From contig JAZQMI010000032.1 in assembly GCA_045543375.1 (NCBI GenBank), positions 1-50,938 on the forward strand: DNA of 50,938 nucleotides, given 5' to 3'. Below the pieces are notes generated by a model that was given only the letters and a program-made list of their open reading frames with translations, searched no databases and had not been told where the DNA came from. A program made the position numbers and the translations under genes. Positions 5,001 through 17,443 of this stretch are shown in pieces; position 1 is the stretch's first letter; each line of letters opens with the position of its first letter. This DNA is from Eubacteriales bacterium (GTDB lineage Bacteria > Bacillota > Clostridia > Oscillospirales > CAG-272).

Positions 5001-7211
5001 TCACTGATCCTCTTCCAATCGCGAGCCGTTGACCGACATAACGCGGTCGACGACGAGCTGACGGAAGGTGGGCGAGAGCATAGCGAAGAAGGCGGTAAAG
5101 CCCGTAACACGCACGACGAGGTCGGGATACTTCATGGGATCCTTGTGAGCCTCGAGTATCTTTTTGCCGTCGATGATATTGATGTTGAGCAGTGTGTTAC
5201 CCGTCGACATGATGGTCTTGATCATAGCGGCCATTTTGTCAACGCCCTCCTCGTCACCGACAATGCCGGGATCGAGCTCAAGCTGGACGGGCGCGCAGTT
5301 GCCGTAGCCGGGCTGGATCGCACCGATCGAGTTGCACATGGCGGTCACCGCACCGTCGCGGCGGAAGCCGCCGTTGGGGTTGGCACCGTGGTTGATGGGC
5401 TCGAACGCCTTGCGTCCATTGGGGGTCGCGCCGACCGTCTTACCAAGACCGATGGTATTCGACCAGGAGAAGAAGCCGGGAATGAAGTTGATTCCCTTAT
5501 ACTGATTGCAAAGATCGCGCACGAGCTTAGTGTACAGCTCGTTGACCTTTTGCGCCCATGCGTCACCCAACGTGCAGCCGCCACCGTAACGGGGGCTGTG
5601 CAGCAGCATCTGACGCACGTACTCGCCGCCCTCGAAGTTGCGGTCAAGCAGCTCGGTCAGCTTTTCGTAGGTCAGCTTACCCTCGCGGTCGATACGGCTC
5701 TCGCAGGCGGCAAAGCTGTCTGCCACCACGGCAAGGCCACTGCCATCCACGCACATGTTGTAGTAATTCGCGCCGCCGTCGGTGATGTTCAGACCCTTCT
5801 CGATCAGTCCGTGCTGGAACAGATTGAGAATGAGCTCGGGCTGGCTCTTGCTCTGATATTTCAGATGGTGCATGATGCCTGCGCCCGTTGCGTCAACGGC
5901 GACCTTGAGATGCTTCTGATAATAGCTCCACAGCTCGTCGATCGAGGGCTGCTCGCTATGTGCCATCATGTCGCGATAAGCAACGTCAAACACCTTGAGC
6001 AGATTGATCTTGACCGTGTCGTTCATGGTATATTCCATACCGGGAATGCACATCCAGTGGCAGCCTGCCGCCACGCGGCGACGCGCAAGATCCTGCGAAT
6101 AACCGCACTTCATAAATCCCGCAACGAGAGCGCTGTCAGACGAATAACGAGGCCAGCCCTGCTTGTTTTTGAACAGATAGGCAACCGACTTGCGGAAGAA
6201 GTCCTCGTTCATGTTATCGTGCACGCGCACGGTCAGGTTGCATGCGATATTGATCTTATCCGCAGCCTCAAGGCACAGATAAGAGATGTGCGAGATCATA
6301 TCCTCGCCGTTCTCGTCGGGACCGCCAAGCTGGAAGTAGCGGCTGTCCTGAAGGAACAGACAAGCAAGGTAGAAGACGGCCTCGTCGTCGGTCAGCTTAC
6401 CGGCAGCCACGTCGCGCTCGTAGTAGGGGCGCAGCATCTCATCAAGCTGTCCGCCCGCGCTTCCGCGGTTGTAGGTACGGGACAGCATGCTGAACCAGCA
6501 CATCCACTGTACCGCCTGACGGAAGGTCTCGGGCTTGCCCGAAACGATGGCACGGTTGCACTCTGCCATATCGACAAGATTCTGCTTGAGAACGGGGTGC
6601 GTTTCCTTTTCGGCAAGCGCCTCGATCTCGTCGGTCATGCGGCCGAGGAAGGCGATGATGGCCTTGACCACGGCGATCTCGGCGCGATAAAAGTCGGCGT
6701 GAGATTCGTCGTGCAGCTTTTCTTGCTCCTCAAGCTTTTGGAGGATTCCGCCCCAGCCCAGATCGAAACCGATCTGAAGATCGGGCGTGAAGTGATGACA
6801 GTTGTCGATACCCGAAATAATGTTGTAGCGATCGAAAATTTCTTGCAGATCGGGGTACGCATAATCGGGGTTCCACTTTTTCTTGGGTGGACGCAATCTC
6901 TCAAGGAACAGAAATCCCTTGCCAACGAATGCGTCGAGCGCGTCGATGTACAGCGGATGCTCCGAGAGCAATCGGCAATAGTTGCTCGACCAAGCGTCGT
7001 AGCCGTAGATAGAGCCGTTCTTGTGGCTGGGTTGCAGCTTGAATTTGAACTCGTCCTGAACGATCAGACCGTAGTCGTCCTCGTCTGCGCCGCCCAGCTT
7101 TGCCTTTTCAGCCGTCTGGTCGACCTTGCGCTGACGCAGAAGGGCAATTCTCTTGTCATAAGACAACTCTTCATCGGGAGAATAGCAGTTGATAAATTTG
7201 ATGGCACTCAT
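5001..7211 (-). CDS. glycyl radical enzyme (PFL-like superfamily), atypical, substrate unknown
   Basis: C-terminal glycyl radical motif VVRVTGFTAFF (Gly704, codon 5100-5102). Motif GATPNGRKAFEP matches the family ATPDGR motif. Cys loop AAGCHWMCIPG (Cys384). At 736 aa it is shorter than most GREs. It lies 2 nt downstream of its activase. Confidence 0.9.
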   Translation of the reverse strand: MSAIKFINCYSPDEELSYDKRIALLRQRKVDQTAEKAKLGGADEDDYGLIVQDEFKFKLQPSHKNGSIYGYDAWSSNYCRLLSEHPLYIDALDAFVGKGFLFLERLRPPKKKWNPDYAYPDLQEIFDRYNIISGIDNCHHFTPDLQIGFDLGWGGILQKLEEQEKLHDESHADFYRAEIAVVKAIIAFLGRMTDEIEALAEKETHPVLKQNLVDMAECNRAIVSGKPETFRQAVQWMCWFSMLSRTYNRGSAGGQLDEMLRPYYERDVAAGKLTDDEAVFYLACLFLQDSRYFQLGGPDENGEDMISHISYLCLEAADKINIACNLTVRVHDNMNEDFFRKSVAYLFKNKQGWPRYSSDSALVAGFMKCGYSQDLARRRVAAGCHWMCIPGMEYTMNDTVKINLLKVFDVAYRDMMAHSEQPSIDELWSYYQKHLKVAVDATGAGIMHHLKYQSKSQPELILNLFQHGLIEKGLNITDGGANYYNMCVDGSGLAVVADSFAACESRIDREGKLTYEKLTELLDRNFEGGEYVRQMLLHSPRYGGGCTLGDAWAQKVNELYTKLVRDLCNQYKGINFIPGFFSWSNTIGLGKTVGATPNGRKAFEPINHGANPNGGFRRDGAVTAMCNSIGAIQPGYGNCAPVQLELDPGIVGDEEGVDKMAAMIKTIMSTGNTLLNINIIDGKKILEAHKDPMKYPDLVVRVTGFTAFFAMLSPTFRQLVVDRVMSVNGSRLEEDQ

Positions 7212-7213
7212 CT

Positions 7214-8146
7214 TTATCCCACCTTTCCCACAATGCCTGCGCGCTCAATAAGAGCGAGCAGCTCGTCAAGGCGTGCCTTGTTCAAGGGTCTTGCGTCTGC
7301 GTGCGCGTTGGCTGCCGACAGCGACTCATACTTGGCACCGCCCAGCGTGTTGAAGTTGAGCAGCTCGTAGCGAACGAGATGCTTCATATTCTTAATATAG
7401 TCGGCGATTGCCGAAATGTTCTCATCCGTATCGGTCACACCGGGAATGAGCGGCGTGCGCACGATAAAGGGGACGCCCAGCTCGTCGAGCTTTTTGGCAT
7501 TTTCGAGCACCTTTTGGTTGCTCACGCCCGTATACGTCTTGTGCGCTTCGTCGTCCATCAGCTTGATATCGAACATAACGAGATCGCATTTTTGAAGTAC
7601 GCTCTCGATGCGGTCAAAATCAAAGCAAAGGTTGGTTTCAATGGCAGCGTGGATACCTTCGGCGTGCGCAGCGTCGATTAACTGCTCGACGAAAGGCGAC
7701 TGGCAAAGGCACTCGCCACCCGACACGGTCATGCCGCCGTTCGAATTGTCGTAGTAGGGCTTATCCTGCACGACCTCGGCCATGATCTCCTTGGCCGACA
7801 TTCTCTTGCCGCAAAGCTGCAGTGCCTCGGCGTAGCAGGCTGCGGCACATTTGCCGCAGCCAACGCATACGTCGCGATCGATGCTATGTACGCCGTTTGC
7901 GATGCTGTGTGCACCCTGCGGGCACACCTCAACGCACTTTCCGCAGCCGATGCAGCGGATGGGGTAAAACATGATCTCGGGCATGTGCTTGAGCGTTTCG
8001 GGGTTATGACACCACGAGCAATGCATCTGGCAGCCCTTCAAAAACACAGTGGTACGAATACCGGGGCCGTCCTGCAGCGAAAAACGCTGAATTTCGGTCA
8101 CGATGCCCTTGATCGCACCCGTGAGCTTGTTATCGTTGTCCATCAT
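7214..8146 (-). CDS. glycyl-radical enzyme activating protein (radical SAM)
   Basis: Radical SAM cluster GCQMHCSWCHNPE plus two ferredoxin-type motifs, CIGCGKCVEVCP and CVGCGKCAAAC. The 310-aa length is typical of non-PFL GRE activases. Confidence 0.9.
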   Translation of the reverse strand: MMDNDNKLTGAIKGIVTEIQRFSLQDGPGIRTTVFLKGCQMHCSWCHNPETLKHMPEIMFYPIRCIGCGKCVEVCPQGAHSIANGVHSIDRDVCVGCGKCAAACYAEALQLCGKRMSAKEIMAEVVQDKPYYDNSNGGMTVSGGECLCQSPFVEQLIDAAHAEGIHAAIETNLCFDFDRIESVLQKCDLVMFDIKLMDDEAHKTYTGVSNQKVLENAKKLDELGVPFIVRTPLIPGVTDTDENISAIADYIKNMKHLVRYELLNFNTLGGAKYESLSAANAHADARPLNKARLDELLALIERAGIVGKVG

Positions 8147-8147
8147 T

Positions 8148-10034
8148 TTATCTTTCCTCGAGCTCTACCCACTCGCCGCTCTCGGCGCTCTTGTACATCA
8201 TATCCAGTACGTAGCGCGAACGGCTACCTGCCTCGGGACCGACGACCAGTGCGTCGCCCGTGCGCAGGCAGTAAGCAAAGTTATCTGCACCCTGGTTCCA
8301 TTCTCTTTGTACGGGGTACGGAGATTCCTCCGTCCACTTGCCGTCCTCGCGCGACCAATAAATGTGCTCGCCCTCGGGACCGCCCGAGGTCAGAAGGTAT
8401 GCACCCTTGTCGCCGTACACCTCAAGACGGGTGTACCAGGTGTTGACGGGGTAAGAGGTGGTCGACGAGAAGCGGGCAACAAAGCCGTTCTCATACTGCC
8501 ACTCGGTGATACCGTAGTCGTCGACCTCGATGTCGTGCGTCTGGGTGTAGGTCGAGCAGCGAACCTTCTTAGGCATGCCGAAGCAGGTCAGCAGACGGTC
8601 GATCTCGTGGATACCCTGATTGCTCAGTGCTCCGCCGCCGTCCATAGCCCAGGTGCCTCTCCAGCCGCCGTTCTCCTTGAAGTAGGAGGCGGGACGCTTG
8701 ATGTTCAAAATCATATTGGCGCTCTTGAGCTTACCGAAGTAACCGCCCTCGACAGCCTTCTGCAGCTCCTTGAGCGGGCCGCGGAAATGCAGGTCGAAGT
8801 CGCAGCCGAGCAGCAGTCCCTTTTCCTTGGCAAAGGCAATGAGCTCGTCGCAACGCTGATAGTTGACGTCCATGGGCTTGGTCAGAAGGACGTTCTTGCC
8901 GGCCTCCAGGCACTGCTTTGCCACGCGGCAGTGATCGCCCGTGGGAACGACGACGTACATGACCTCAACGGCGGGGTCGTTCAAAAAGGTGTTGATGTCG
9001 GTGCTATAGGGAACCTTGAACTGCTCGCCGATCTCCTTGGCGCGCGCCTCGTTGATGTCGCAAACGCCATACAGCTTGATACCGTTGGTGTTGGTGATCT
9101 GTGCGCAGCGGTTCTTACCCATACCAAGGCCGACGACGACCATGTTGACGGGGTTATCGTTGTAGGGACGGTCGAACATCTGGACGGGCGAGAGCGCCGA
9201 CTTCATATCGCCGGGGGCGCTGGCGGGCCAGACGCGCTTGATGTAATCGTAGCACTTCTTGGTTGCCTGCTCACCGTTCAGGCCTACGCCTGCGGGAACG
9301 TGCGTTTCGATCGACACAGGCATATCCTTGCCCGTGACGAGCGCGCCGCGAAGCACTCTCTCCCACGGAACCTTCTTGCCCTCGACCTCAGCAAGCACAC
9401 CGCGCGACTTGACGTGCAGCATGTTGGCATATTTCAGGCACTTGGTGAAGTAGTCCACGCAGTCGCCCTTGGCCTCGGGCAGAATCTCAAACATATTGGA
9501 AACGTCCCAAGCCATACCCCAGCCGGGCACGTTGAGCTGCTCCAGTACGGTGATGACCTCGTCGGGCGTCTGACCGCAGTTTTCAATGCCGAGGATCAGA
9601 CCGGCCTCCTGCGCACGCTTAGCAAAGGGATAGAACATTTCCAGCACCTGAGCCTGTGCGTCGGGGCGCATGGCCAGCTCGCCGCACTTGGGATCGTACT
9701 GGTCGTGCTGCCAGAAGTTGAACGAACGGACCAGACGGCAATCCAGCACGTCGGCCGCGCGGATGATACCCTCAAGCTTTGCCATTTCCTTGGCAACGCC
9801 GTCAGGGCCGGGCAGGTGAACCTTGCACAGCGAAGACTGGATAACACCCGTCTTCAGACCAAGGCTGTCGAGCTGTGCACGAAGAGCCTTGAGTTCGTCC
9901 ATGGTCAGATTTTCAATGGGCTTACCGAACACTCTGGAACGGAAGTCCACGTACTTCATCCCCCAAGAAGCAATGGTAGGCAGGATCTCGGTAACTTCTC
10001 TTTGAAGCTCGTCAGTAAACACGGATACGTACAT
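8148..10034 (-). CDS. fusion protein: xylose-isomerase-like TIM barrel (aa 1-270) + Gfo/Idh/MocA NAD(P) oxidoreductase (aa 296-628)
   Basis: The N-terminal half has the sugar-phosphate isomerase/epimerase pattern (..LGIENCG.., ..SIETHVP..). The C-terminal half begins with Rossmann VNMVVVGLGMGKNR and has ..EAGKNVLLTKPM.. typical of Gfo/Idh/MocA. RBS AAGGAGAA. Its stop is 1 nt from the activase start. Confidence 0.8.
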   Translation of the reverse strand: MYVSVFTDELQREVTEILPTIASWGMKYVDFRSRVFGKPIENLTMDELKALRAQLDSLGLKTGVIQSSLCKVHLPGPDGVAKEMAKLEGIIRAADVLDCRLVRSFNFWQHDQYDPKCGELAMRPDAQAQVLEMFYPFAKRAQEAGLILGIENCGQTPDEVITVLEQLNVPGWGMAWDVSNMFEILPEAKGDCVDYFTKCLKYANMLHVKSRGVLAEVEGKKVPWERVLRGALVTGKDMPVSIETHVPAGVGLNGEQATKKCYDYIKRVWPASAPGDMKSALSPVQMFDRPYNDNPVNMVVVGLGMGKNRCAQITNTNGIKLYGVCDINEARAKEIGEQFKVPYSTDINTFLNDPAVEVMYVVVPTGDHCRVAKQCLEAGKNVLLTKPMDVNYQRCDELIAFAKEKGLLLGCDFDLHFRGPLKELQKAVEGGYFGKLKSANMILNIKRPASYFKENGGWRGTWAMDGGGALSNQGIHEIDRLLTCFGMPKKVRCSTYTQTHDIEVDDYGITEWQYENGFVARFSSTTSYPVNTWYTRLEVYGDKGAYLLTSGGPEGEHIYWSREDGKWTEESPYPVQREWNQGADNFAYCLRTGDALVVGPEAGSRSRYVLDMMYKSAESGEWVELEER

Positions 10035-10160
10035 GATGTTTTCTCCTTTTCATTTTTTCATTTTTCATCGACTTATGTTTACATATTTCCATACACAATT
10101 ATTATATTGTTAAATGCGTTACAAATATATGACTTTTTTCTATAAAAATGAAACATTTTT

Positions 10161-10193
10161 ATGTTTTTGGGATGTTTTTGGGATGTTTTTGAT
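10161..10193. repeat. three tandem 11-bp units ATGTTTTTGGG (third copy degenerate), helically phased T-tracts
   Basis: ATGTTTTTGGG ATGTTTTTGGG ATGTTTTTGAT read directly, located in the divergent control region between the GRE operon and the SBP gene. Confidence 0.8.
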
Positions 10194-10291
10194 GAAGATA
10201 GAACGTTATATATGAAAAGCAACCGCGTTTCCCAATCAAATACGTGGTATTTTTCTATCATTTGTTTTAGAAATATCACAAAATAATCATA

Positions 10292-10320
10292 TTGACTTTT
10301 GAGAATATTTGTATTATAAT
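10292..10320 (+). promoter_or_regulatory. sigma-A promoter of the solute-binding protein gene
   Basis: TTGACT (10292-10297), 17-nt spacer, TATAAT (10315-10320). Confidence 0.7.
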
Positions 10321-10330
10321 GTATGGTGAA

Positions 10331-10355
10331 GAATGATTTCGTGAAAAAATCATTC
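10331..10355 (+). promoter_or_regulatory. 9-bp inverted repeat at the transcript start (operator or 5'-UTR hairpin)
   Basis: GAATGATTT - 7 nt - AAATCATTC, starting about 10 nt after the -10 box. No T-run follows, so it is not a terminator. Confidence 0.45.
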
Positions 10356-10381
10356 AAAAAGAGATAATGGAGGATAGTAGC

Positions 10382-11905
10382 ATGAAAAGATTGCTCACCC
10401 TGTTGCTGGCAGTGATGATGATCGCATCCGTATTTGCTTTCGTCGGCTGTGGCAACGACACACCCAACCCCGACCAGCCCGGTCAGCCCGACCAGCCCGG
10501 CACCACCGATCCTGCCACGCCCGGTAGCTCGGATCAGCCTGTCGGCGACGGTATTGACTACATCACGCAGGTCGAAGTAGAAAACTTCAACAATGCATGG
10601 ATCACCATCCTTTGCCGTGAGGACAAGGAGTACGAGATGTACACCGAAGAGGATGCCGCCGCTCTGGTCGATCAGGCCGTTTACGCTCGTAACAACCGCG
10701 TAGCTGACCTGTTCAAGGTTCAGATCGAAACGCATCCCGTTGCAGGTACCTGGGAGCAGCAGCAGACCTACATTCAGGCTCTGGCTCAGTCGGTTTCTGC
10801 CGGTGACGACGCTTATCAGATCGCCGCTACGCACACGGCTTACAACTCCAACTTGACCATTCAGGAGCAGTACTACGATCTGCGCACGCTGGGCAACGCC
10901 ATCAACCTGGACGCCGCTTGGTGGTCGCAGTCGTTCAATGAGAACTGCACCGTTTACGACAAGCTGTTCTTCACCACCGGTGACCTTGCCCTGACCATGT
11001 GGGAGGGTATGTACGCCGTATACTTCAACAGAAAGCTTGCTACCGACTACGGTGTCGGCGATCTGTATCAGATGGTCCGCGACAAGGAGTGGACGATCGA
11101 GACGCTGACCGAGCTCACCGCAGGTCTGTATCAGGACAACGGTGATGACACCATGGGTCCCGAGGATACCTACGGTCTGCTGATCAACCGTCACGCAATG
11201 CGCGTATTCCTGACCACCTGCCAGCTTCCCATCTGCCAGCGTACGACGGACGGCGGCTACAAGCTGACCCTCATGGACGAGGAGCACATTGATAAGACCA
11301 CGACCGTATACGATAATCTTTACGATCTGATCTATGAGAACGATGGTACTTACGATTCCCAACTGCAGGACGGCGACTACACCGAGATGAACGAGATCTT
11401 CACCGCAGGCCGCTCGCTGTTCATGATGGGTGAGCTTCGCGTCACGCCCTCTCTCCGCGCCGCTGATATGGAGTTCGGTATCCTTCCCTTCCCCAAGTAC
11501 GACGAGGAGCAGGAAGAGTACTACGCTCACACCTACGACGGTCTGTCTTCCTTCGCTATCCCGCTGTCCGCTAAGGATCCCGCCATGTGCGCTAAGATCC
11601 TGGACGCTATGGGTGCAGAAAACAAGACTTCCGTTATCCCCGCTTACAACGAGATCGTGCTTGACGGTCGTGTAGCTCAGGACGGCGATTCCCGCGAGAT
11701 GCTGGGTATCATCCGTGACAACCTGTACTTCGACTTTGGTTTCGTTTACTCCAACACCATGGGTACTTCGGGCGTTTCCGGTCCCTTCGCTCTGTACGGT
11801 GACGCACTGCGCAGAGGAAGCGAGTCCTTCATCTCCGAGTGGGATCAGTATGCAACTGCACTGGCTACCAACTTGGAGGACGTGCTGGCCAAGTTTGACC
11901 AGTAA
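10382..11905 (+). CDS. extracellular solute-binding lipoprotein (family 1 sugar ABC SBP, about 500-aa LplA/YtcQ-like class), orphan
   Basis: Start set at the ATG at 10382, 8 nt after GGAGG. Signal peptide with lipobox MKRLLTLLLAVMMIASVFAFVGC, then a Pro/Asp/Gln-rich linker. Size and composition fit large sugar SBPs. No permease genes are nearby. Confidence 0.75.
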   Translation: MKRLLTLLLAVMMIASVFAFVGCGNDTPNPDQPGQPDQPGTTDPATPGSSDQPVGDGIDYITQVEVENFNNAWITILCREDKEYEMYTEEDAAALVDQAVYARNNRVADLFKVQIETHPVAGTWEQQQTYIQALAQSVSAGDDAYQIAATHTAYNSNLTIQEQYYDLRTLGNAINLDAAWWSQSFNENCTVYDKLFFTTGDLALTMWEGMYAVYFNRKLATDYGVGDLYQMVRDKEWTIETLTELTAGLYQDNGDDTMGPEDTYGLLINRHAMRVFLTTCQLPICQRTTDGGYKLTLMDEEHIDKTTTVYDNLYDLIYENDGTYDSQLQDGDYTEMNEIFTAGRSLFMMGELRVTPSLRAADMEFGILPFPKYDEEQEEYYAHTYDGLSSFAIPLSAKDPAMCAKILDAMGAENKTSVIPAYNEIVLDGRVAQDGDSREMLGIIRDNLYFDFGFVYSNTMGTSGVSGPFALYGDALRRGSESFISEWDQYATALATNLEDVLAKFDQ

Positions 11906-11920
11906 TTCCCGAACATATTG

Positions 11921-11952
11921 CGAGGGTGCACTGCGGTGCACCCTCGTTTTTT
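11921..11952 (+). terminator. rho-independent terminator
   Basis: CGAGGGTGCAC tgcg GTGCACCCTCG followed by TTTTTT. Confidence 0.85.
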
Positions 11953-12127
11953 GTTGCATTGATTCCCTTCGTTTTACGGCAGCTTGAATTTGCACTATTT
12001 TTTCTTGATTTTTTTGTTTAAAATCGGATTTTTTTATACTTTGCTATCGCCGTTTATCGTACCATGGGCGTTTGACACTATTTTTTAAATTATTTCATTT
12101 GAAATTAAAGTTTTTGATACTATATTA

Positions 12128-12230: not shown

Positions 12231-13133
12231 ATGGAGGGGACGACGCTTATGGAAGATTTTTACCTGGAACGGAGATTGCGTATCTTCACGGATAGCGATC
12301 CCATCACGTTCGCATACAAAACGTCTTACGACGTTCCGTCGATTCACAATCTGCATATTCACCACAACTACGAGTTGTATTTTTATATTGAGGGTGACGC
12401 CGATTACATCGTCAACAATGCTTATTATAAGCTGCACCGTGGCGACGTTATGATCATCAGCCCCAATGAAACACATATGCTGGTACTCAAAAAGCCGTGT
12501 CAGTACACTCGCTTTTATATGGTATTCCCGCCTAACGTGTTCATCAACCACATCATCAACCCACTCCAGACGCTGCTGCGCCGCACGACGGGTGGCTCTG
12601 CCAAGCTGACACTGACTCCCGATATGTGGGATCGCGTATACGGCATGATGCAGGACATTCTTCGCGTTTGCCGCGACGACCCCGATGATTCGGGCGAGCT
12701 TCTGCACACCAAGATCTACGCCATGCTGCTGCAACTGTTGTGCTCGTTGAGCGAAAAAACCACTTCGGTGCAGTCGGTCGGCGACCAGTTCGGTGCGGCA
12801 CATCTGCCCGGCCCCATGCGCGAGGCCATGGCTTACATTGAAACGCACCTGACGCAAAACATCACGGTGCGCGAGATTGCCGAGGCCATTCATATCTCTC
12901 CGCCTTATCTGTCCTCGATCTTCCGCAAGCACATGGGCGTGCCGCTGGTCACCTATCTGCAAACGCGCAAGATCGTGCTCGCCAAGCAAATGCTGGAGGA
13001 GGGGCGGTCGGTCACCTACGCCTGCTATGAGAGCGGATTTTCGGATTGCTCGTATTTCATTCGCATCTTCAAGCGTCATCTCGGCATGACGCCGCTGCAA
13101 TACCGCAATTCCTTCCGCAACTCGGAAAAATAA
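12231..13133 (+). CDS. AraC family transcriptional regulator (N-terminal cupin sensor + C-terminal double HTH)
   Basis: N-terminus has an AraC-type cupin (HIHHNYELYFYIEGDADY...HRGDVMIISPNETH). C-terminus has the HTH_18 pattern (IAEAIHISPPYLSSIFRKHMG ... ACYESGFSDCSYFIRIFKRHLGMTPLQYR). The start could instead be the ATG at 12249. Confidence 0.9.
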   Translation: MEGTTLMEDFYLERRLRIFTDSDPITFAYKTSYDVPSIHNLHIHHNYELYFYIEGDADYIVNNAYYKLHRGDVMIISPNETHMLVLKKPCQYTRFYMVFPPNVFINHIINPLQTLLRRTTGGSAKLTLTPDMWDRVYGMMQDILRVCRDDPDDSGELLHTKIYAMLLQLLCSLSEKTTSVQSVGDQFGAAHLPGPMREAMAYIETHLTQNITVREIAEAIHISPPYLSSIFRKHMGVPLVTYLQTRKIVLAKQMLEEGRSVTYACYESGFSDCSYFIRIFKRHLGMTPLQYRNSFRNSEK

Positions 13134-13135
13134 TC

Positions 13136-13172
13136 AAAAAGCATCACGGACTTTGCGTCCGTGATGCTTTTT
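13136..13172. terminator. bidirectional terminator between convergent genes
   Basis: AAAAAGCATCACGGAC tttgc GTCCGTGATGCTTTTT, a 16-bp stem that includes an A-run and a T-run. Confidence 0.85.
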
Positions 13173-13173
13173 C

Positions 13174-16170
13174 TTATTCCTTGGCAAACGCCTCGTTGAG
13201 CATGCGTGCAATGTTCCGCATGCGCTCGGCGTCGACTTTGACCGCTTGGCGGTCGTAGGTAACAAGACCGTTGACCTCGTCCTCGACGTCGCTGAGCTGT
13301 GTCAGCACAAGCGCGCAGAGATTGGTATTGCGCAATGCGGGCACAATCTGTTCGCCGTACAGGTGCTCCAGAGCCGTGATCAGCTCGTCTGTGCTGTGAT
13401 AGGTCGCATAGCCGTAGCTTGCATCAAGATTGAAAATATGACCGTCCACGCCAAGACAATAGCCGCCAAATTCGGACAGCACGATCGGGAGCGTTTGATT
13501 TGATCTGAGGCGAACGGGCTTGAAATAAACGTGCTCACTTTGAACGTCGCTGCGTCGGGGTCTGAACCAGCCCGATGCGCTGTCCCAGATGCGCGTCGGA
13601 TCAAGCAGCTTCATTTCATCGTAGATGCGCGCGGTATCGTACTGTCCCCAGCCCTCGTTAAAAATGGTGTAGTAACAGACGCAGGGACTGTTGTACAGCA
13701 GATTAACCGTTTCCTTGGCCGCACCTTCAAAGGCGGCGCGGCGGCGCGGACTTGCGTGATGTGCAATGCCACGTTTGAAGGCAACGGTCGGCAGCGCGGT
13801 GTCGATCAGAAACGAATAGTTGCCGCTGTTGACCATGTCCTGGAACACGGACATGCCCAAGAGATCGCAATAGTAATAGAACAACGCAGGCTCGATCTTG
13901 ATGTGCTTGCGCAGCATGTTAAAGCCCAGCGACTTGGCCGTTTGAATATCAAAGCGGTAACCCTCGGGATCAGCGGGCAGATAGATGCCGTCGCTGAAAT
14001 AGCCCTGATCGAGCAGGCCGTGGAACAGATAGGGCTTACCGTTGAGCGCGGTCACGGGACCGTTATTTGTATCAACGACCGTGACGGTGCGCAAGGCGAA
14101 ATAGGACTCGACTCTGTCCTCACCGCACACGAGCGTGAAGCGGTAGAGATAGGGGTGCTCGGGCGACCAGAGGTGTACCTCGTCGGGTGCGAGCGTGAAC
14201 ACGTCACCCTCGTAGCAGTATTCACGATCCCCTGCCTCGGTATGCAGCACGATCGTCTTTTGCGCCGTGCCTCCCGTCGTTTCCACCGTCACGCACTCAG
14301 TCGACGGCGTCAAACGCAAAGAGCGGATATGCTCGGCGGGCAACGCTTCCATCCAGACCGTTTGCCAGATGCCGCTGGTGGGCGTGTACCACATGCCGCC
14401 GCGACGCTCGCGCTGCTTGCCGTAGGGCAGTTCCCGATCAAGCGCGTCCTGCACGCGGACGGTCAGCGTGTTTTCTCCCTCGCGCCACGCGCTTGTCACG
14501 TCAATCGAAAAAGGATGATAGCCACCCTCGTGCTCACCGACGGGCGTGCCGTTCAAGCATACCCGGGCAATCTGATCGACCGCGCCAAAGTGCAGCATCA
14601 GCCGCTTGCCCTCACCAAAAAATCCGTCGGGCAACGTGACCGTGCGCTCGTAAACAAGAATATCTTGTTTTTCAAAGCGGCACTCAATGCCCGAGGCGCG
14701 GGATTCGGGCGGAAACGGCACGAGAATATCACCCACACACTCGGTCTGCCCCTCACGCTCAAGAGCGAGTGACCAGCGACCGTTCAGGCACAGGTAGGAA
14801 TTGCGCTTCATTTGCGGACGGGGATATTCCTGCCACGGAATGTCGCCCATGTTCTGTTCAAATGGCGTGCCGAGCGACACCGTACGGGGCATTTTTTTGT
14901 GTCCGATCCACCACACGAGCAGCACGACGGGCACGGCGGCAAGCAATGCTGCCACGAAGATATTTTGATTGGGTACGAACGAGGTCGTTCCGTCGCCGTT
15001 GACCACAACGTCAGCGTTGCGCAGCACCGTCTTACCGATCCACGGACCGATGACACCGGGCAGCAGCACCTGCGAGCAAATGCGTACGCCTTGCAGCATA
15101 CCCGAACGCCCAGCGGGGGTCAGATCGCGAATGAGGGCACCGAACACGGCCATGCCGCAAAGGTAGCCGCACATCATGAGCAGCGAGCCAACGAACACAA
15201 GTACCGTTCCACGGAACAGCATGAGCAGCACGTAACCGACCATCAAAGACGCCAGTGCCGGCATGACCGCGCCCGAAAATCCGCGCTTGTCGTACACGTG
15301 CCCCCAGAAAAAGGTAGCGACCGACGCAAGCACGATGGCGGGTGCCATGATGAGCACGTAATCCTTCATGCCCAGCGACACCTCGTAATAAAGAATGAGG
15401 TAAGGCATGAAGATCTGAATGGAAATATTAAATACGACAAAGGTGATCAAGGCGCGGTAGAGCGTGGGGTTTTTGCGCACCGTCGAGGGGCGGAAGCCGT
15501 AAACGATGCCCTGCCAATAGGGCACGTCACTTTTTCTGATGGGCGGCTCTTTGATCAAAAACAGCCCTGCGATGCCAACGACAAGCGTCAGCGCGCCGAT
15601 GATGGCAAAGATATACGACCAGCTTTGGCTTTCGTCCAGATTGAACGCCATAAAGCCACCAAACACACAGAGAATGGCGACCAGCGGCATCATGGCGTTG
15701 ATACCCTCGGCCGCGCCGCGGTTGCCCTCATCGGTCATGTCGGTCAGCCAGGCGTTGAAGGCGGCGTCATTGGCGGTCGAGCCGAAGAAGGTCATGACGC
15801 AGTCCATGATGATGACCAAGGAAACGCCCACGGCAGCCGCCGACACGGTCATGGGAACGAGCGGCTCGATGACGTCAAGTCGGATAAACACAAAGCTGAA
15901 AATCGAGATGCCCCAGAGGATATAACCGCCGCACATGAACAGCTTGCGCTTGCCCACGCGGTCGGACAGCGCGCCCATGAGCACCGTCGTCAGCGTGGCT
16001 GCCACGGCGCTGGCGGCAACCATGGCGGAAATATCCGATGGAGTTGCGTTGAACATCTTATAGATAAAGACGTTGAAATACATGTTTTCCACGACCCAGG
16101 CGATCTGACCCATCAACGAAAAGACGGTCAGTGCGCACAAAAATCGCGGCGATAGCTTGCTTTTGCTCAT
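13174..16170 (-). CDS. fusion protein: GPH/MFS-type glycoside transporter (aa 1-425, about 12 TM) + glycoside hydrolase family 2 (aa 440-998)
   Basis: One uninterrupted 998-aa ORF. The N-terminal half is hydrophobic and MFS-like (..GALSDRVGKRKLF..). The C-terminal half has a GH2 sugar-binding region (LHFGAVDQIARVCLNGTPVGEHEGGYHPFSIDVT), acid/base IFNEGWG and a nucleophile-like LSEFGG. RBS AAAAGGAGAAG. Confidence 0.8.
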   Translation of the reverse strand: MSKSKLSPRFLCALTVFSLMGQIAWVVENMYFNVFIYKMFNATPSDISAMVAASAVAATLTTVLMGALSDRVGKRKLFMCGGYILWGISIFSFVFIRLDVIEPLVPMTVSAAAVGVSLVIIMDCVMTFFGSTANDAAFNAWLTDMTDEGNRGAAEGINAMMPLVAILCVFGGFMAFNLDESQSWSYIFAIIGALTLVVGIAGLFLIKEPPIRKSDVPYWQGIVYGFRPSTVRKNPTLYRALITFVVFNISIQIFMPYLILYYEVSLGMKDYVLIMAPAIVLASVATFFWGHVYDKRGFSGAVMPALASLMVGYVLLMLFRGTVLVFVGSLLMMCGYLCGMAVFGALIRDLTPAGRSGMLQGVRICSQVLLPGVIGPWIGKTVLRNADVVVNGDGTTSFVPNQNIFVAALLAAVPVVLLVWWIGHKKMPRTVSLGTPFEQNMGDIPWQEYPRPQMKRNSYLCLNGRWSLALEREGQTECVGDILVPFPPESRASGIECRFEKQDILVYERTVTLPDGFFGEGKRLMLHFGAVDQIARVCLNGTPVGEHEGGYHPFSIDVTSAWREGENTLTVRVQDALDRELPYGKQRERRGGMWYTPTSGIWQTVWMEALPAEHIRSLRLTPSTECVTVETTGGTAQKTIVLHTEAGDREYCYEGDVFTLAPDEVHLWSPEHPYLYRFTLVCGEDRVESYFALRTVTVVDTNNGPVTALNGKPYLFHGLLDQGYFSDGIYLPADPEGYRFDIQTAKSLGFNMLRKHIKIEPALFYYYCDLLGMSVFQDMVNSGNYSFLIDTALPTVAFKRGIAHHASPRRRAAFEGAAKETVNLLYNSPCVCYYTIFNEGWGQYDTARIYDEMKLLDPTRIWDSASGWFRPRRSDVQSEHVYFKPVRLRSNQTLPIVLSEFGGYCLGVDGHIFNLDASYGYATYHSTDELITALEHLYGEQIVPALRNTNLCALVLTQLSDVEDEVNGLVTYDRQAVKVDAERMRNIARMLNEAFAKE

Positions 16171-16188
16171 TTTCTTCTCCTTTTATGC

Positions 16189-16220
16189 AAAAGCCCTGCC
16201 AAAGAGCGGCACGGGCTTTT
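16189..16220 (-). terminator. terminator after the nucleotidyltransferase gene
   Basis: On the minus strand: AAAAGCCCGTGCC gctcttt GGCAGGGCTTTTGCAT. One bulged base in the stem. Confidence 0.6.
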
Positions 16221-16231
16221 GTTATCATTGA

Positions 16232-17425
16232 TTATTCGCCTTGCGCGTTGAAATTCTGGGGTAATCCAAGCTGATCGAACAGCTCCGATACGTGTCCTAC
16301 CTGCTCACCCGACATTTGCGCATTGAGCGCGAGCTCGTGCACGCCGCCACGCAATTTTCCGCGCCGAATGCCACGGGCAAGGCGGCGCATCTGATAGAAA
16401 AAGGTCAGATATCTATGTCCCTTGAGCGCGGGATAGGTATGAACGAGCTGCTCGTACGGCATAAAAATACGGGATAATGCATAACCAAGCTTGCCCTTGC
16501 CCTTGGCATGCTGGATGGCAACAAAGTTCACTTTATCGCCGTAGGTGCCACCCTGCAAGACGAAGTTAGCCATGTCACGTCCAAGCGCGTCGAGCGCGCC
16601 GTCCGAAAACCAGGCAAGGCACACCTTGCGCGCCGTGTTGGCAAAGATTGAAAGCCCGGTGCTTGTCAGCAACTCTTGCAAAGCGGCTCGGTCGAGCTGC
16701 TCGTTTTGTTCAAGCAGCCAAAGATCCATAAAGGTGCGTATGCCGCAGCCGCCGCCGGCAAAATGCTTGGCCATGTGGGCGACGTGATAGAAATAGAACA
16801 TCTCGTCCGTCATGGCGCGACGGTAGCAACAGCCCTCGATCTCGCGGGTATACGACCAGACCTCGCGCAGCAGAGCCGATGCAGGACCGATGCGATCATC
16901 CTCGATCAGGTCGTGGTGCAGCTCAATGTGCACGCCCGAAGGCGAATACAGCGAAATGTCATGGTCGGTTTCATACGACTGCTTGACGTATCCGAGCTGC
17001 TCCGTCAACAATGCTTCGGCATGTGGAATGTCTTGCTTGTGGACGAGCAGATCGATATCGCTGCTCGTGCGCATCCAAGGCTCGGGATACAGCGCACGAA
17101 GCACCGCCCCTTTGAGCGGCAAATGGATAATGCCCCCCTGCTCGAGCACGCGACAACTTTCCGCAAGCTCGATGCGCTGGTGCTCATAACGGAACACCGA
17201 AAGCATTTGCGCCTTTTGCAACTTGGCTCCCGCCTCGCTCGCCGTATTCAGCGCACCCGCACGATACAGCGCGTAGGATACGATATGTGCCACGTCGTGA
17301 TGATAGGCGGCAGCATACAGTTGCCCCATTTGCTGCTCGTCTTGCGGCACGCACGCGCACACCTCGCCACGCAATGCCGCGCGACAAAGGGCGATCATTA
17401 TATTGGCAACGGATGTTGGTTGCAT
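16232..17425 (-). CDS. uncharacterised nucleotidyltransferase family protein (NTP_transf_5-like)
   Basis: Motif HLPLKGAVLRALYPEPWMRTSSDIDLLV matches my memory of the uncharacterised nucleotidyltransferase family. I chose the ATG at 17425 (RBS GAAAGGAAGGAAA) over the tracked GTG at 17428. Confidence 0.55.
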   Translation of the reverse strand: MQPTSVANIMIALCRAALRGEVCACVPQDEQQMGQLYAAAYHHDVAHIVSYALYRAGALNTASEAGAKLQKAQMLSVFRYEHQRIELAESCRVLEQGGIIHLPLKGAVLRALYPEPWMRTSSDIDLLVHKQDIPHAEALLTEQLGYVKQSYETDHDISLYSPSGVHIELHHDLIEDDRIGPASALLREVWSYTREIEGCCYRRAMTDEMFYFYHVAHMAKHFAGGGCGIRTFMDLWLLEQNEQLDRAALQELLTSTGLSIFANTARKVCLAWFSDGALDALGRDMANFVLQGGTYGDKVNFVAIQHAKGKGKLGYALSRIFMPYEQLVHTYPALKGHRYLTFFYQMRRLARGIRRGKLRGGVHELALNAQMSGEQVGHVSELFDQLGLPQNFNAQGE

Positions 17426-17443
17426 CACATTTCCTTCCTTTCT

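What the first reader, a model, noticed from the sequence alone, without database searches (positions are those of the whole stretch)
13174..16170. Transporter and glycosidase fused in one 998-aa protein (MFS/GPH::GH2)
Seen in sequence: an uninterrupted ORF. The first 425 aa or so form about 12 hydrophobic spans of MFS/GPH type. The rest is a GH2 catalytic module (acid/base IFNEGWG, nucleophile-like LSEFGG), and the junction (about nt 14890, ..VWWIGHKKMPRTVSLGTPFEQN..) has no stop. Established knowledge: GPH symporters and their glycosidases are normally separate adjacent genes (gusB/gusA, melB/melA, lacS/lacZ). Inference: with an even TM count the hydrolase is tethered to the cytoplasmic face of its own transporter, so the glycoside would be hydrolysed as it enters. 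I could not find the N-x-K carboxylate-recognition motif of beta-glucuronidases in the expected region (..DEVNGLVTYDRQAVK..), so specificity is open. Its position next to the AraC/SBP/GRE block suggests it may deliver the glycone or aglycone to that pathway.
Basis: partly seen in the sequence, partly recalled or inferred. Interest (0 to 1): 0.6.

Follow-up and report, generated by a model that had tools for sequence, protein, structure and literature searches.

The report
Sugar importer fused to furanosidase enzyme
One gene of an uncultured cattle-gut bacterium joins a membrane transporter to a sugar-cleaving enzyme that sits just inside the cell, so uptake and first cleavage of a sugar compound (probably a galactofuranoside) are likely done by a single protein.

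Summary
On the minus strand, 13174..16170 is one uninterrupted 998-aa ORF with a strong RBS and its own terminator.

- **N-terminal part:** residues 1-423 form a canonical 12-helix MFS permease. It matches Pfam MFS_1, not the GPH family.
- **Topology:** it is N-in/C-in, so the GH2 module that starts about 4-10 residues after TM12 is cytoplasmic.
- **Not an artefact:**
  - All 119 other clusters listed in the homologue search, and 8 more distant ones, have the same architecture.
  - Independent contigs from two cattle-gut studies cross the junction without an indel.
- **Enzyme type:** the GH2 part is not a beta-glucuronidase. It belongs to GH2 'group III', the furanosidases. Its closest solved relatives are 7SF2 and the beta-D-galactofuranosidase ORF1110. 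All eight ORF1110 residues that contact the Galf mimic, including both catalytic Glu, are conserved.
- **Three gene arrangements:** in 301 genomes of the same order, the MFS and GH2 parts occur fused (about 12 genomes), as adjacent MFS->GH2 genes (20) or on different contigs (10).
the proposed tie to the AraC/GRE block is not supported. The genes are convergent across a terminator, and this context is conserved in 0 of 47 other loci.
- **Precedent:** a 2018 paper describes an MFS::GH17 fusion in marine Flavobacteriia, so this is a new variant of a known kind.

This scan had already noted the same architecture in another genome.

The parts
13174..16170 (-). Whole gene: 998 codons plus a TAA stop; MFS::GH2 fusion protein (P0001)
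   Evidence: open frame. (119 other clusters listed, 985-1003 aa, same Pfam architecture). (independent contigs cross the junction without gaps).
14902..16170 (-). MFS permease domain, residues 1-423, 12 TM helices, N-in/C-in. A short beta-hairpin (387-399) lies in the outside loop between TM11 and TM12.
   Evidence: Pfam MFS_1 at 2.9e-30. AF2 helices 8-40, 44-72, 75-95, 111-145, 151-173, 181-205, 235-265, 271-318 (TM8+TM9), 322-350, 360-382, 403-422. K+R 23 inside against 4 outside. Foldseek gives a generic MFS fold.
14851..14901 (-). Junction, residues 424-440 (HKKMPRTVSLGTPFEQN). The true linker is only about 4-10 residues, because homology to stand-alone GH2 enzymes already starts at residue 428.
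   Evidence: The alignment to 9j6n starts at query residue 428. In split relatives the GH2 protein begins with the same LxTPFE-like segment. No stop or indel appears in independent contigs.
13177..14850 (-). [quoted passage not shown] It belongs to GH2 group III, the furanosidase clade.
   Evidence: phmmer against PDB: 7sf2 at 7.6e-103, 9j6n/9j6m beta-D-galactofuranosidase at 3e-89, 7xyr at 7e-53, GUS at 1e-22 or weaker. Foldseek TM(target) 0.87, 0.86-0.87, 0.77 and about 0.7. Subfamily framework from PMC12243196.
13654..13656 (-). Codon of E839, the predicted acid/base in FNEGWG. It aligns with E464 of ORF1110.
   Evidence: alignment with the residue roles given in PMC11627007. Invariant in 30 of 30.
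13471..13473 (-). Codon of E900, the predicted nucleophile in LSEFGG. It aligns with E530 of ORF1110.
   Evidence: alignment with PMC11627007. Invariant in 30 of 30.
16177..16182 (-). Shine-Dalgarno AAGGAG, 6 nt before the ATG at 16170
   Evidence: Read directly from the sequence.
13136..13172 (.). Bidirectional intrinsic terminator (16-bp stem, T-runs on both strands). It lies between the fusion gene's stop and the convergent AraC gene.
16193..16207 (-). Small hairpin plus T-run between the upstream NTP_transf_5 gene (stop at 16232) and the fusion gene. Weak terminator-like site.
   Evidence: This is a consensus match only.

Best explanation
The gene encodes a self-contained uptake-and-cleavage module.

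- **Transport step (inferred).** The N-terminal 12-TM MFS domain imports a small glycoside or oligosaccharide across the cytoplasmic membrane.
- **Tethering (shown by sequence and models).** The C-terminal GH2 domain follows the cytoplasmic end of TM12 after a linker of only about 4-10 residues.
- **Hydrolysis step.** The GH2 domain is a retaining exo-glycosidase of the furanosidase clade, GH2 group III. It removes the terminal furanose as the substrate arrives. The sugar is most likely beta-D-galactofuranose, possibly also alpha-L-arabinofuranose. The catalytic pair E839 (acid/base) and E900 (nucleophile) is shown by alignment; the activity itself is inferred.
- **Fate of the product (inferred).** Freed galactose then enters central metabolism.
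- **Evolutionary setting.** The fusion is one state of a widespread MFS->GH2 two-gene cassette of gut Clostridia. That cassette also occurs as adjacent, often overlapping, genes and as unlinked genes.
For: **Architecture and topology**
- One ORF with its own RBS and terminator.
- Twelve TM helices.
- K+R count of 23 inside against 4 outside.
- GH2 homology starts at residue 428.

**The fusion is real and conserved**
- All 119 other clusters listed have the same Pfam architecture.
- 8 of 8 more distant full-length representatives (33-58% identity, 989-1045 aa) carry MFS_1 plus GH2.
- Independent contigs cross the junction without gaps.

**The two parts are functionally linked**
- Among the 80 best loci in species-representative genomes: 40 fused, 10 adjacent or split, 27 MFS only, 3 unclear.
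- 5 of 5 tested 'MFS-only' genomes carry an unfused GH2 orthologue elsewhere, at 51-54% identity.
- In 301 genomes of the same order I counted from the rows:
  - 9 complete fused genes, 2 fused genes cut by contig ends, and 1 with an internal TAA;
  - 20 adjacent pairs, always in the order MFS->GH2;
  - 10 genomes with the two parts on different contigs.
- The MFS and GH2 trees show the same fused/split sister pairs: L031/L033, L078/L029+L043, P0121/L067.

**Enzyme type**
- Best solved relatives are 7SF2 and the Galf-specific ORF1110.
- PMC12243196 assigns ORF1110 (9J6M) to GH2_18 and describes group III as the furanose-active group.
- All eight ORF1110 residues that PMC11627007 reports in contact with D-iminogalactitol have identical counterparts: K212, Y228, H401, N463, E464, E530, Y551, E594 map to K585, Y595, H756, N838, E839, E900, Y921, E965.
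- All eight are invariant in 30 of 30 fused homologues.
- They include K212, Y228 and E594, which bind O5/O6 and are said to discriminate Galf from Araf.

**Hints that the product is galactose**
- A relative of the same GH2 clade is fused to a galactokinase (P0150).
- The window's genome holds a galactokinase-family gene cut by a contig start (TIGR00131, 132 bits, E 1.4e-38).
- No AraA N-domain was found in the window's genome.

**Membrane tethering of this clade recurs**
- P0246 is a 6-TM ABC permease fused to this GH2.
- P0135 and P0146 are unknown 8-10-TM domains fused to this GH2.

**Precedent for the mechanism**
- An MFS::GH17 fusion in Formosa (PMC6246565, passages seen).
Against: **The transporter's substrate is unknown**
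- Nothing here shows what the MFS domain carries or in which direction.
- It matches only the general MFS_1 model. No specific NCBIfam model is reached and there is no PDB sequence relative.
- Its structural neighbours are a mixture of drug, sugar, anion and muropeptide carriers, all near E 1e-8.
- MFS genes of the same subfamily (65-75% identical) sit beside unrelated genes in 27 of 80 loci.

**The sugar is not settled**
- Galf against Araf cannot be decided from sequence. PMC11627007 states that bifunctional GH2 enzymes exist.
- The model's active-site loops are of low confidence: 584-596 and 963-967 have pLDDT below 50.
- The TIM-barrel Pfam score of the window's own protein is below the cut-off (18.3 against 21).

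**The pathway is incomplete**
- No conserved neighbouring catabolic genes.
- The galactokinase hit is partial and below its cut-off.
- The genome is only 81% complete.

**Expression and evolution**
- Expression is not shown. There are only two 151-nt contigs in one RNA library, which may hold DNA.
- The trees are FastTree, rooted at the midpoint.
Confidence: 0.55

Rival explanations
1. Same import-plus-hydrolysis mechanism, but the physiological substrate is an alpha-L-arabinofuranoside (arabino-oligosaccharides from plant fibre) or another furanoside, not a galactofuranoside.
For: - GH2 group III holds both alpha-L-arabinofuranosidases and beta-D-galactofuranosidases (PMC12243196).
- Bifunctional GH2 enzymes exist (PMC11627007).
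- The gene and its relatives come from herbivore-gut metagenomes, where arabinans abound (record titles; runs).
Against: - The three residues that bind O5/O6 of the Galf mimic (K212, Y228, E594 of ORF1110) are conserved and invariant.
- No AraA N-domain was found in the 81%-complete genome, while a partial galactokinase-family gene is present.
- A sister GH2 is fused to a galactokinase.
Confidence: 0.2
2. Recycling rather than foraging. The permease re-imports fragments of the cell's own Galf-containing envelope glycans and the tethered GH2 trims them. This would resemble AmpG with NagZ in muropeptide recycling (comparison from my own knowledge).
For: - AmpG is among the structural neighbours of the MFS domain (9j9z).
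- The gene has no conserved catabolic neighbours and looks like a housekeeping single-gene unit.
- The MFS part is unusually conserved, at 65-80% identity across families.
Against: - No UDP-galactopyranose mutase (PF03275) was found in the window's genome, so there is no sign that it makes Galf. The genome is only 81% complete.
- AmpG is just one of many equally scored MFS neighbours.
Confidence: 0.1
3. The MFS domain serves mainly as a membrane anchor or as an exporter. The GH2 domain then acts on a cytoplasmic or membrane-associated substrate unrelated to uptake.
For: - The same GH2 clade is also fused to unrelated polytopic membrane domains (P0135, P0146) with no transporter signature.
- MFS_1 includes many exporters.
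Against: - The MFS part keeps all 12 helices and the conserved loop motifs, and survives as an intact separate gene in split and unlinked forms.
- An ABC importer permease is fused to the same clade (P0246).
- The conserved order MFS->GH2 in 20 adjacent pairs is that of catabolic permease/hydrolase cassettes.
Confidence: 0.07
4. It is a glucuronide or galactoside system of the GusB/GusA or LacY/LacZ type that happens to be fused.
For: NCBIfam's best (weak) match is to beta-glucuronidase PRK10150. GUS structures are found at E 1e-22 or weaker.
Against: - PRK10150 scores 75 bits against a cut-off of 544.
- The furanosidase relatives score 60-80 orders of magnitude better.
- PMC11627007 reports that the aromatic stacking residue of GUS and beta-galactosidases is absent in this clade.
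Confidence: 0.03
5. Assembly or sequencing artefact that joins two genes.
For: - Split relatives exist, and one (L033) differs from its fused sister by a frameshift in the A-rich, lysine-coding linker.
- The window comes from a fragmented, metagenome-type assembly: 130 contigs, 81% complete.
Against: - All 119 other clusters listed show the same fusion.
- 40 fused loci were found in other species' genomes.
- Two independent contigs from two studies cross the junction with 0 gaps.
Confidence: 0.01

Closest known systems
FORMB_24740 (FbGH17B) of Formosa sp. Hel1_33_131: N-terminal MFS fused to a GH17 exo-beta-1,3-glucosidase (Unfried et al. 2018, ISME J, PMC6246565; passages seen)
   Same: An N-terminal 12-TM MFS followed directly by a C-terminal glycoside hydrolase. 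It is conserved across a lineage and is interpreted as coupling transport with hydrolysis.
   Different: - Hydrolase family: GH17 glucosidase there, GH2 furanosidase clade here.
- Phylum and habitat: marine Flavobacteriia there, gut Clostridia here.
- Gene setting: inside a laminarin PUL there; a stand-alone gene without conserved neighbours here.
- I did not compare the two MFS domains by sequence.
ORF1110 beta-D-galactofuranosidase of Streptomyces sp. JHA19 (PDB 9J6M/9J6N; GH2_18) and the uncharacterised BACCELL_01794 (PDB 7SF2)
   Same: - Three-domain GH2 fold, TM(target) 0.86-0.87.
- E 3e-89 and 7.6e-103.
- Both catalytic Glu and all six other ligand-contacting residues are identical.
   Different: - ORF1110 is secreted (signal peptide) and carries a C-terminal CBM42-like domain (PMC11627007).
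- The window's module is cytoplasmic, has no CBM and is welded to a permease.
- Foldseek reports about 35% identity to these chains.
Permease-plus-glycosidase gene pairs (LacY/LacZ, GusB/GusA, MelB/MelA; named from my own knowledge), and the split MFS->GH2 pairs of this same family found here
   Same: Same logic of import followed by cytoplasmic hydrolysis. Within this family, 20 of 301 genomes have the two parts as adjacent genes in the same order.
   Different: - Here the two are one polypeptide.
- The transporter is not of the LacY or GPH families.
- The hydrolase is not a GUS or LacZ-type enzyme.
Other fusions of the same GH2 clade seen in the protein library: ABC permease::GH2 (P0246), galactokinase::GH2 (P0150), unknown 8-10-TM domain::GH2 (P0135, P0146)
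   Same: The same GH2 clade (39-50% identity to residues 406-994) joined at its N-terminus to a partner that acts before or after it in sugar uptake or use.
   Different: The partner domains differ. None of these fusions is characterised, and I did not examine their genomic context.

Membership tests
Major facilitator superfamily (Pfam MFS_1, PF07690) | Profile score above the curated cut-off | tested here: met
   105.8 bits against 33.4, residues 32-376.
Major facilitator superfamily (Pfam MFS_1, PF07690) | Twelve TM helices in two six-helix bundles, with both termini cytoplasmic | tested here: met
   AF2 models. Foldseek matches to many MFS structures at TM 0.6-0.74. K+R 23 inside against 4 outside. 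Topology is predicted, not measured.
Glycoside-pentoside-hexuronide (GPH) symporters (Pfam MFS_2, PF13347) | Profile score above the curated cut-off | tested here: not met
   17.7 bits against 27, and only residues 7-135 match.
Glycoside hydrolase family 2 | GH2 domain profiles (jelly-roll, Ig-like, TIM barrel) | tested here: met
   - N-domain 46.8 against 28.
- Ig-like domain 24.1 against 23.
- TIM barrel 18.3 against 21, below the cut-off in this protein but above it in 7 of 8 distant fused relatives.
- Full-length match to GH2 structures at E 7.6e-103.
Glycoside hydrolase family 2 | Two catalytic glutamates (acid/base in an N-E motif; nucleophile) | tested here: met
   N838-E839 and E900 align with N463-E464 and E530 of ORF1110. 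Invariant in 30 of 30.
GH2 group III furanosidases (GH2_18/GH2_19), beta-D-galactofuranosidase | Closest to characterised group III members rather than to groups I or II | tested here: met
   9j6n/9j6m at 3e-89 and 7xyr at 7e-53, against GUS at 1e-22 or weaker. Same order by fold. The CAZy subfamily HMMs themselves were not available.
GH2 group III furanosidases (GH2_18/GH2_19), beta-D-galactofuranosidase | Residues that bind the Galf mimic in ORF1110 (K212, Y228, H401, N463, E464, E530, Y551, E594) | tested here: met
   Identical residues at K585, Y595, H756, N838, E839, E900, Y921, E965. I mapped them by hand from the alignment printed, using the numbering of PMC11627007. All are invariant in A1.
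GH2 group III furanosidases (GH2_18/GH2_19), beta-D-galactofuranosidase | Hydrolysis of beta-D-galactofuranosides | not testable with these tools
   Needs an enzyme assay.
Beta-glucuronidase (GUS; NCBIfam NF007538 PRK10150) | Equivalog score above the cut-off | tested here: not met
   75 bits against 544.
Transporter-CAZyme fusion as described for FbGH17B (PMC6246565) | N-terminal 12-TM MFS and C-terminal glycoside hydrolase in one polypeptide | tested here: met
   Description of FbGH17B.
Transporter-CAZyme fusion as described for FbGH17B (PMC6246565) | Hydrolase of family GH17 inside a laminarin PUL | tested here: not met
   The hydrolase is GH2. There are no PUL-like or otherwise conserved neighbours.

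The most novel reading that the evidence does not exclude
The very short tether makes transport and hydrolysis one vectorial step. The glycoside leaving the permease's cytoplasmic gate would be cleaved at once, so product removal pulls uptake. This would be a hydrolytic analogue of group translocation. The natural series of fused, translationally coupled and unlinked versions in related gut Clostridia would then record selection acting on that coupling. The same principle would explain why this GH2 clade has also been welded to an ABC permease and to unknown polytopic membrane domains.
Probability: 0.2. Interest if true: 0.7.

Novelty: new variant of a known kind. Interest (0 to 1): 0.45.

Why it matters
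- **Possible role.** If the reading is right, many uncultured gut Clostridia of ruminants and other animals carry a one-protein route for taking up and opening furanoside sugars. Galactofuranose occurs in fungal and bacterial glycans but is not made by mammals.
- **Annotation gap.** The one source name seen for this family is plain 'MFS transporter', so this capacity could go unrecognised where only that name is used.
- **Natural experiment.** The family offers fused, adjacent and unlinked versions of the same two parts. That is a ready test of what covalent coupling of a transporter to its enzyme buys the cell.
- **Wider pattern.** It extends the only described transporter-CAZyme fusion (MFS::GH17, marine Flavobacteriia) to another enzyme family, phylum and habitat.

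Tried and rejected
- **Complex prediction**: the MFS domain (1-430) against the GH2 domain (441-998), cut apart. The verdict was 'no answer' (score 0.00), so it says nothing either way on docking.
- **Naming the transporter's subfamily or substrate.** All attempts gave only 'MFS':
  - NCBIfam: no model near its cut-off.
  - PDB sequence search with residues 1-430: nothing meaningful.
  - ESM Atlas: only generic 'MFS transporter' clusters.
  - Foldseek of the domain model: a mixed bag of MFS carriers.
- **Conserved neighbours**: in 48 loci the commonest neighbour family is an ABC ATPase, in 7 loci. Nothing points to a pathway.
- **Neighbours of the unlinked GH2 orthologues**: unrelated genes.
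- **Promoter scan**: no sigma-70-like site on the minus strand upstream of the gene. One site was found on the plus strand, against 2.7 expected by chance.
- **Expression**: one metatranscriptome run holds two 151-nt contigs (14321-14471 and 14553-14703) at depth 2. This is too little, and DNA carry-over cannot be excluded.
- **Genes not found in the window's genome**: UDP-galactopyranose mutase and the AraA N-domain. With 81% completeness this is not absence. PF10509 found no galactokinase signature, but the only galactokinase-like gene is cut at its 5' end by a contig start.
- **Literature searches for an MFS::GH2 fusion**: these found only the MFS::GH17 case. Subscription journals are not in the library.
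- **GH2 subfamily paper.** PMC12243196 states that it filtered out proteins with TM domains before its secretion-signal analysis. I did not open its supplements, which might list such fusions.


Full report
**Observation**

The ORF lies on the minus strand, 13174..16170, and gives 998 residues without a stop. An AAGGAG Shine-Dalgarno sits 6 nt before the ATG at 16170. A 16-bp-stem hairpin with T-runs on both strands (13136-13172) follows the TAA stop directly and is shared with the convergent AraC-family gene at 12231-13133. Upstream on the same strand lies an NTP_transf_5 gene (16232-17428), followed by a weak terminator-like hairpin. The gene therefore looks like its own transcription unit, although the consensus scan found no promoter for it.

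**Anatomy: the transporter half**

Pfam places MFS_1 on residues 32-376 (E 2.9e-30). The GPH model MFS_2 stays below its cut-off, at 17.7 against 27 bits. Hydropathy and two AlphaFold2 models agree on twelve TM helices ending at about residue 423. The full-length model has pLDDT 83.9 and pTM 0.69. The MFS domain alone has pLDDT 89.9 and pTM 0.88. A small beta-hairpin sits in the TM11-TM12 loop.

With those boundaries, the loops predicted to be cytoplasmic hold 23 Lys+Arg and the outer loops hold 4. This gives the usual N-in/C-in MFS topology and puts everything after TM12 in the cytoplasm. Foldseek of the domain model finds many MFS carriers at similar scores, among them YajR, NorA, PfHT1, sialin, AmpG and DgoT (E about 1e-8, TM 0.6-0.74). 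The fold is confirmed but no substrate class follows from it. NCBIfam, a PDB sequence search and the ESM Atlas likewise gave only 'MFS'.

**Anatomy: the enzyme half**

- **Sequence.** Residues 443-989 match PDB 7SF2 (BACCELL_01794, uncharacterised) at E 7.6e-103. Residues 428-993 match the beta-D-galactofuranosidase ORF1110 (9J6N/9J6M) at about 3e-89. 7XYR follows at 7e-53. True beta-glucuronidases reach only 1e-22 or weaker.
- **Fold.** Foldseek gives the same ranking: TM(target) 0.87, 0.86-0.87, 0.77 and about 0.7.
- **Subfamily framework.** The 2025 GH2 subfamily paper places 9J6M in GH2_18 and 7XYR in GH2_19. Together these form 'group III', the only GH2 group active on furanoses (beta-D-Galf-ase and alpha-L-Araf-ase) (PMC12243196, passages).
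- **Active site.** The ORF1110 structure paper names E530 as nucleophile and E464 as acid/base. It lists N463, H401, K212, Y228, Y551 and E594 as the residues hydrogen-bonded to D-iminogalactitol. K212, Y228 and E594 hold O5/O6, which the authors regard as the basis for preferring Galf over Araf (PMC11627007).
- **Mapping.** I mapped these residues through the alignment printed. The chain index plus 23 gives ORF1110 numbering, which I checked on the NEGWGQYD, RKHIK and GKQR motifs. The counterparts are E900, E839, N838, H756, K585, Y595, Y921 and E965. All are identical, and all are invariant in an alignment of 30 fused homologues.
- **Caveats.** The mapping was done by hand from a tool alignment. 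Two of the loops concerned have pLDDT below 50 in the model.
- **Not a glucuronidase.** NCBIfam's beta-glucuronidase equivalog scores 75 bits against a cut-off of 544.

**The junction**

Homology to stand-alone GH2 enzymes begins at residue 428, four residues after TM12. In relatives where the GH2 is a separate protein, it starts with the same LxTPFE-like segment. The tether is thus very short, and the enzyme must sit against the cytoplasmic face of the permease. Cutting the two domains apart and asking a complex predictor whether they dock gave no verdict.

**Is the fusion real?**

- **Protein clusters.** In the 5.8-billion-cluster search, the 120 best clusters (the query and 119 others) are 985-1003 aa, 61-83% identical, and all carry MFS_1 plus GH2 Pfam domains. 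The only source name shown was 'MFS transporter [Clostridia bacterium]'.
- **Distant representatives.** In the 50%-identity representative library, eight further full-length fused representatives go down to 33% identity. All 8 have both domain sets.
- **Independent contigs.** Logan contigs from cattle-gut runs of two studies cover 13891-15960 and 13986-15193 with substitutions only and 0 gaps.

An artefact is excluded as far as contigs can show.

**Comparative genomics**

*Species-representative genomes.* A scan found 578 loci encoding relatives. The 80 best are all Clostridia metagenome-assembled genomes, by their record titles mostly from animal guts and faeces, labelled Eubacteriales, Oscillospiraceae, Acutalibacteraceae, Christensenellaceae or Faecousia. 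Reading the frames gave:

| State | Loci (of 80) |
|---|---|
| Fused (37 complete at 982-1037 aa, 3 running off the contig) | 40 |
| MFS gene followed directly by a separate GH2 gene | 10 |
| MFS gene with unrelated downstream genes | 27 |
| Unclear | 3 |

Among the ten split cases, seven are complete. Their gaps run from -29 to +19 nt and include an in-frame stop followed at once by ATG.

*Unlinked orthologues.* In 5 of 5 'MFS-only' genomes tested, an unfused GH2 orthologue (51-54% identity, 571-594 aa frames) lies on another contig.

*The same order.* In an even sample of 301 genomes (30 families), 142 have a match at E <= 1e-30. From the listed rows I count:

- 9 complete fused genes (including the window's), 2 fused genes cut by contig ends, and 1 spanning match with an internal TAA;
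- 20 genomes with adjacent MFS->GH2 genes;
- 10 genomes with the two parts on different contigs.

These are lower bounds, because only two candidates per genome were scored and 38 matches were not listed.

*Conservation and trees.* The MFS part is 65-80% identical to the window's whether fused, split or alone. The GH2 part is 47-69% identical. FastTree trees of each part place split and MFS-only forms repeatedly inside fused clades and show the same fused/split sister pairs. Fusion and fission therefore look recurrent and recent. The trees are quick and rooted at the midpoint, so direction is not established. Some frameshift-type splits in the A-rich linker could also be assembly errors.

*Other partners.* The same GH2 clade is also found fused to a 6-TM ABC permease (P0246), to a galactokinase (P0150) and to unknown 8-10-TM domains (P0135, P0146).

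**Context in the window**

The GRE, its activase, the AP_endonuc_2::GFO/IDH/MocA protein and the AraC gene do not recur next to the fusion gene in any of the 47 other loci compared. The commonest shared neighbour is an ABC ATPase, in 7 of 48 loci. The AraC gene is divergent from the minus-strand block at 5001-11995 and convergent with the fusion gene. The proposed delivery of a glycone or aglycone to the GRE pathway has no support.

**The window's genome**

It is a 1.8-Mb, 130-contig assembly estimated at 81% complete. It holds:

- one fused gene;
- one stand-alone GH2 paralogue, 38% identical over query residues 439-784;
- a galactokinase-family gene cut by a contig start.

No UDP-galactopyranose mutase and no AraA N-domain were found.

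**Mechanism proposed**

An MFS importer brings in a small furanoside, and the tethered cytoplasmic exo-furanosidase removes the terminal sugar, most likely beta-D-Galf.

- Shown: architecture, predicted topology, catalytic and ligand-binding residues, conservation, and genetic linkage of the two parts.
- Inferred: direction and substrate of transport, the sugar specificity, and any kinetic benefit of the tether.

**Comparison with the known**

Permease-hydrolase gene pairs are textbook. A transporter-CAZyme fusion has been described once in the library I could search: the MFS::GH17 protein FbGH17B of Formosa, 'common among marine Flavobacteriia' (PMC6246565, passages). Six searches found no description of an MFS::GH2 fusion. 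This scan had already noted the same architecture in another genome (finding e1-3374035) with the same reading, which I had reached before seeing it. That report said it found no literature precedent. The Formosa paper is one for the kind, though not for this enzyme family.

**Verdict**

This is a real, widespread and uncharacterised variant of a known kind. It is of moderate interest, mainly for the furanosidase assignment and for the natural series of fused, adjacent and unlinked forms.

Noticed in passing
It matches nothing in Pfam or NCBIfam (E <= 1e-3) or in PDB sequences (E <= 0.01). A 512-aa ORF is open on the opposite strand (10367-11905) and also has no hits.
   Followed up: partly
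window 5001-10034 (-): - A glycyl radical enzyme: PFL-like plus Gly_radical, best NCBIfam match PFL2-3 at 272 bits against a cut-off of 678, below every equivalog.
- Its radical-SAM activase.
- A 628-aa fusion of a xylose-isomerase-like TIM barrel with a GFO/IDH/MocA dehydrogenase.

Together these form an uncharacterised GRE locus, probably under the divergent AraC regulator.
   Followed up: no
proteins P0246, P0150, P0135, P0146 (one search hits): The same GH2 furanosidase clade is fused N-terminally to an ABC permease (BPD_transp_1, 6 TM), to a galactokinase, and to unknown polytopic domains with 8-10 hydrophobic spans and no Pfam match.
   Followed up: partly
L033:9212-9377 against L031; L029 and L043 junctions: - The linker is lysine-rich and encoded by A-runs.
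- One split relative (L033) differs from its fused sister by a frameshift there.
- Others (L029, L043) have an in-frame stop followed directly by ATG.

Slippage-prone sequence may drive fusion/fission, or cause assembly errors.
   Followed up: partly
G000:C104:4026-5102 (L082): The window's genome has a second, unfused GH2 of the same broad clade. It is 38% identical over query residues 439-784, in an open frame of 580 aa.
   Followed up: no
window 16232-17428 (-) and L050:6143-7366 (-): An NTP_transf_5 'uncharacterised nucleotidyltransferase' gene lies directly upstream of the fusion gene in the window. A homologue lies near the fusion gene in one other locus (L050).
   Followed up: no
L045:4272-7574 and L072:9536-12835: Two MFS-only relatives are followed by a gene of about 1100 aa with an alkaline-phosphatase domain and a C-terminal dockerin.
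   Followed up: no
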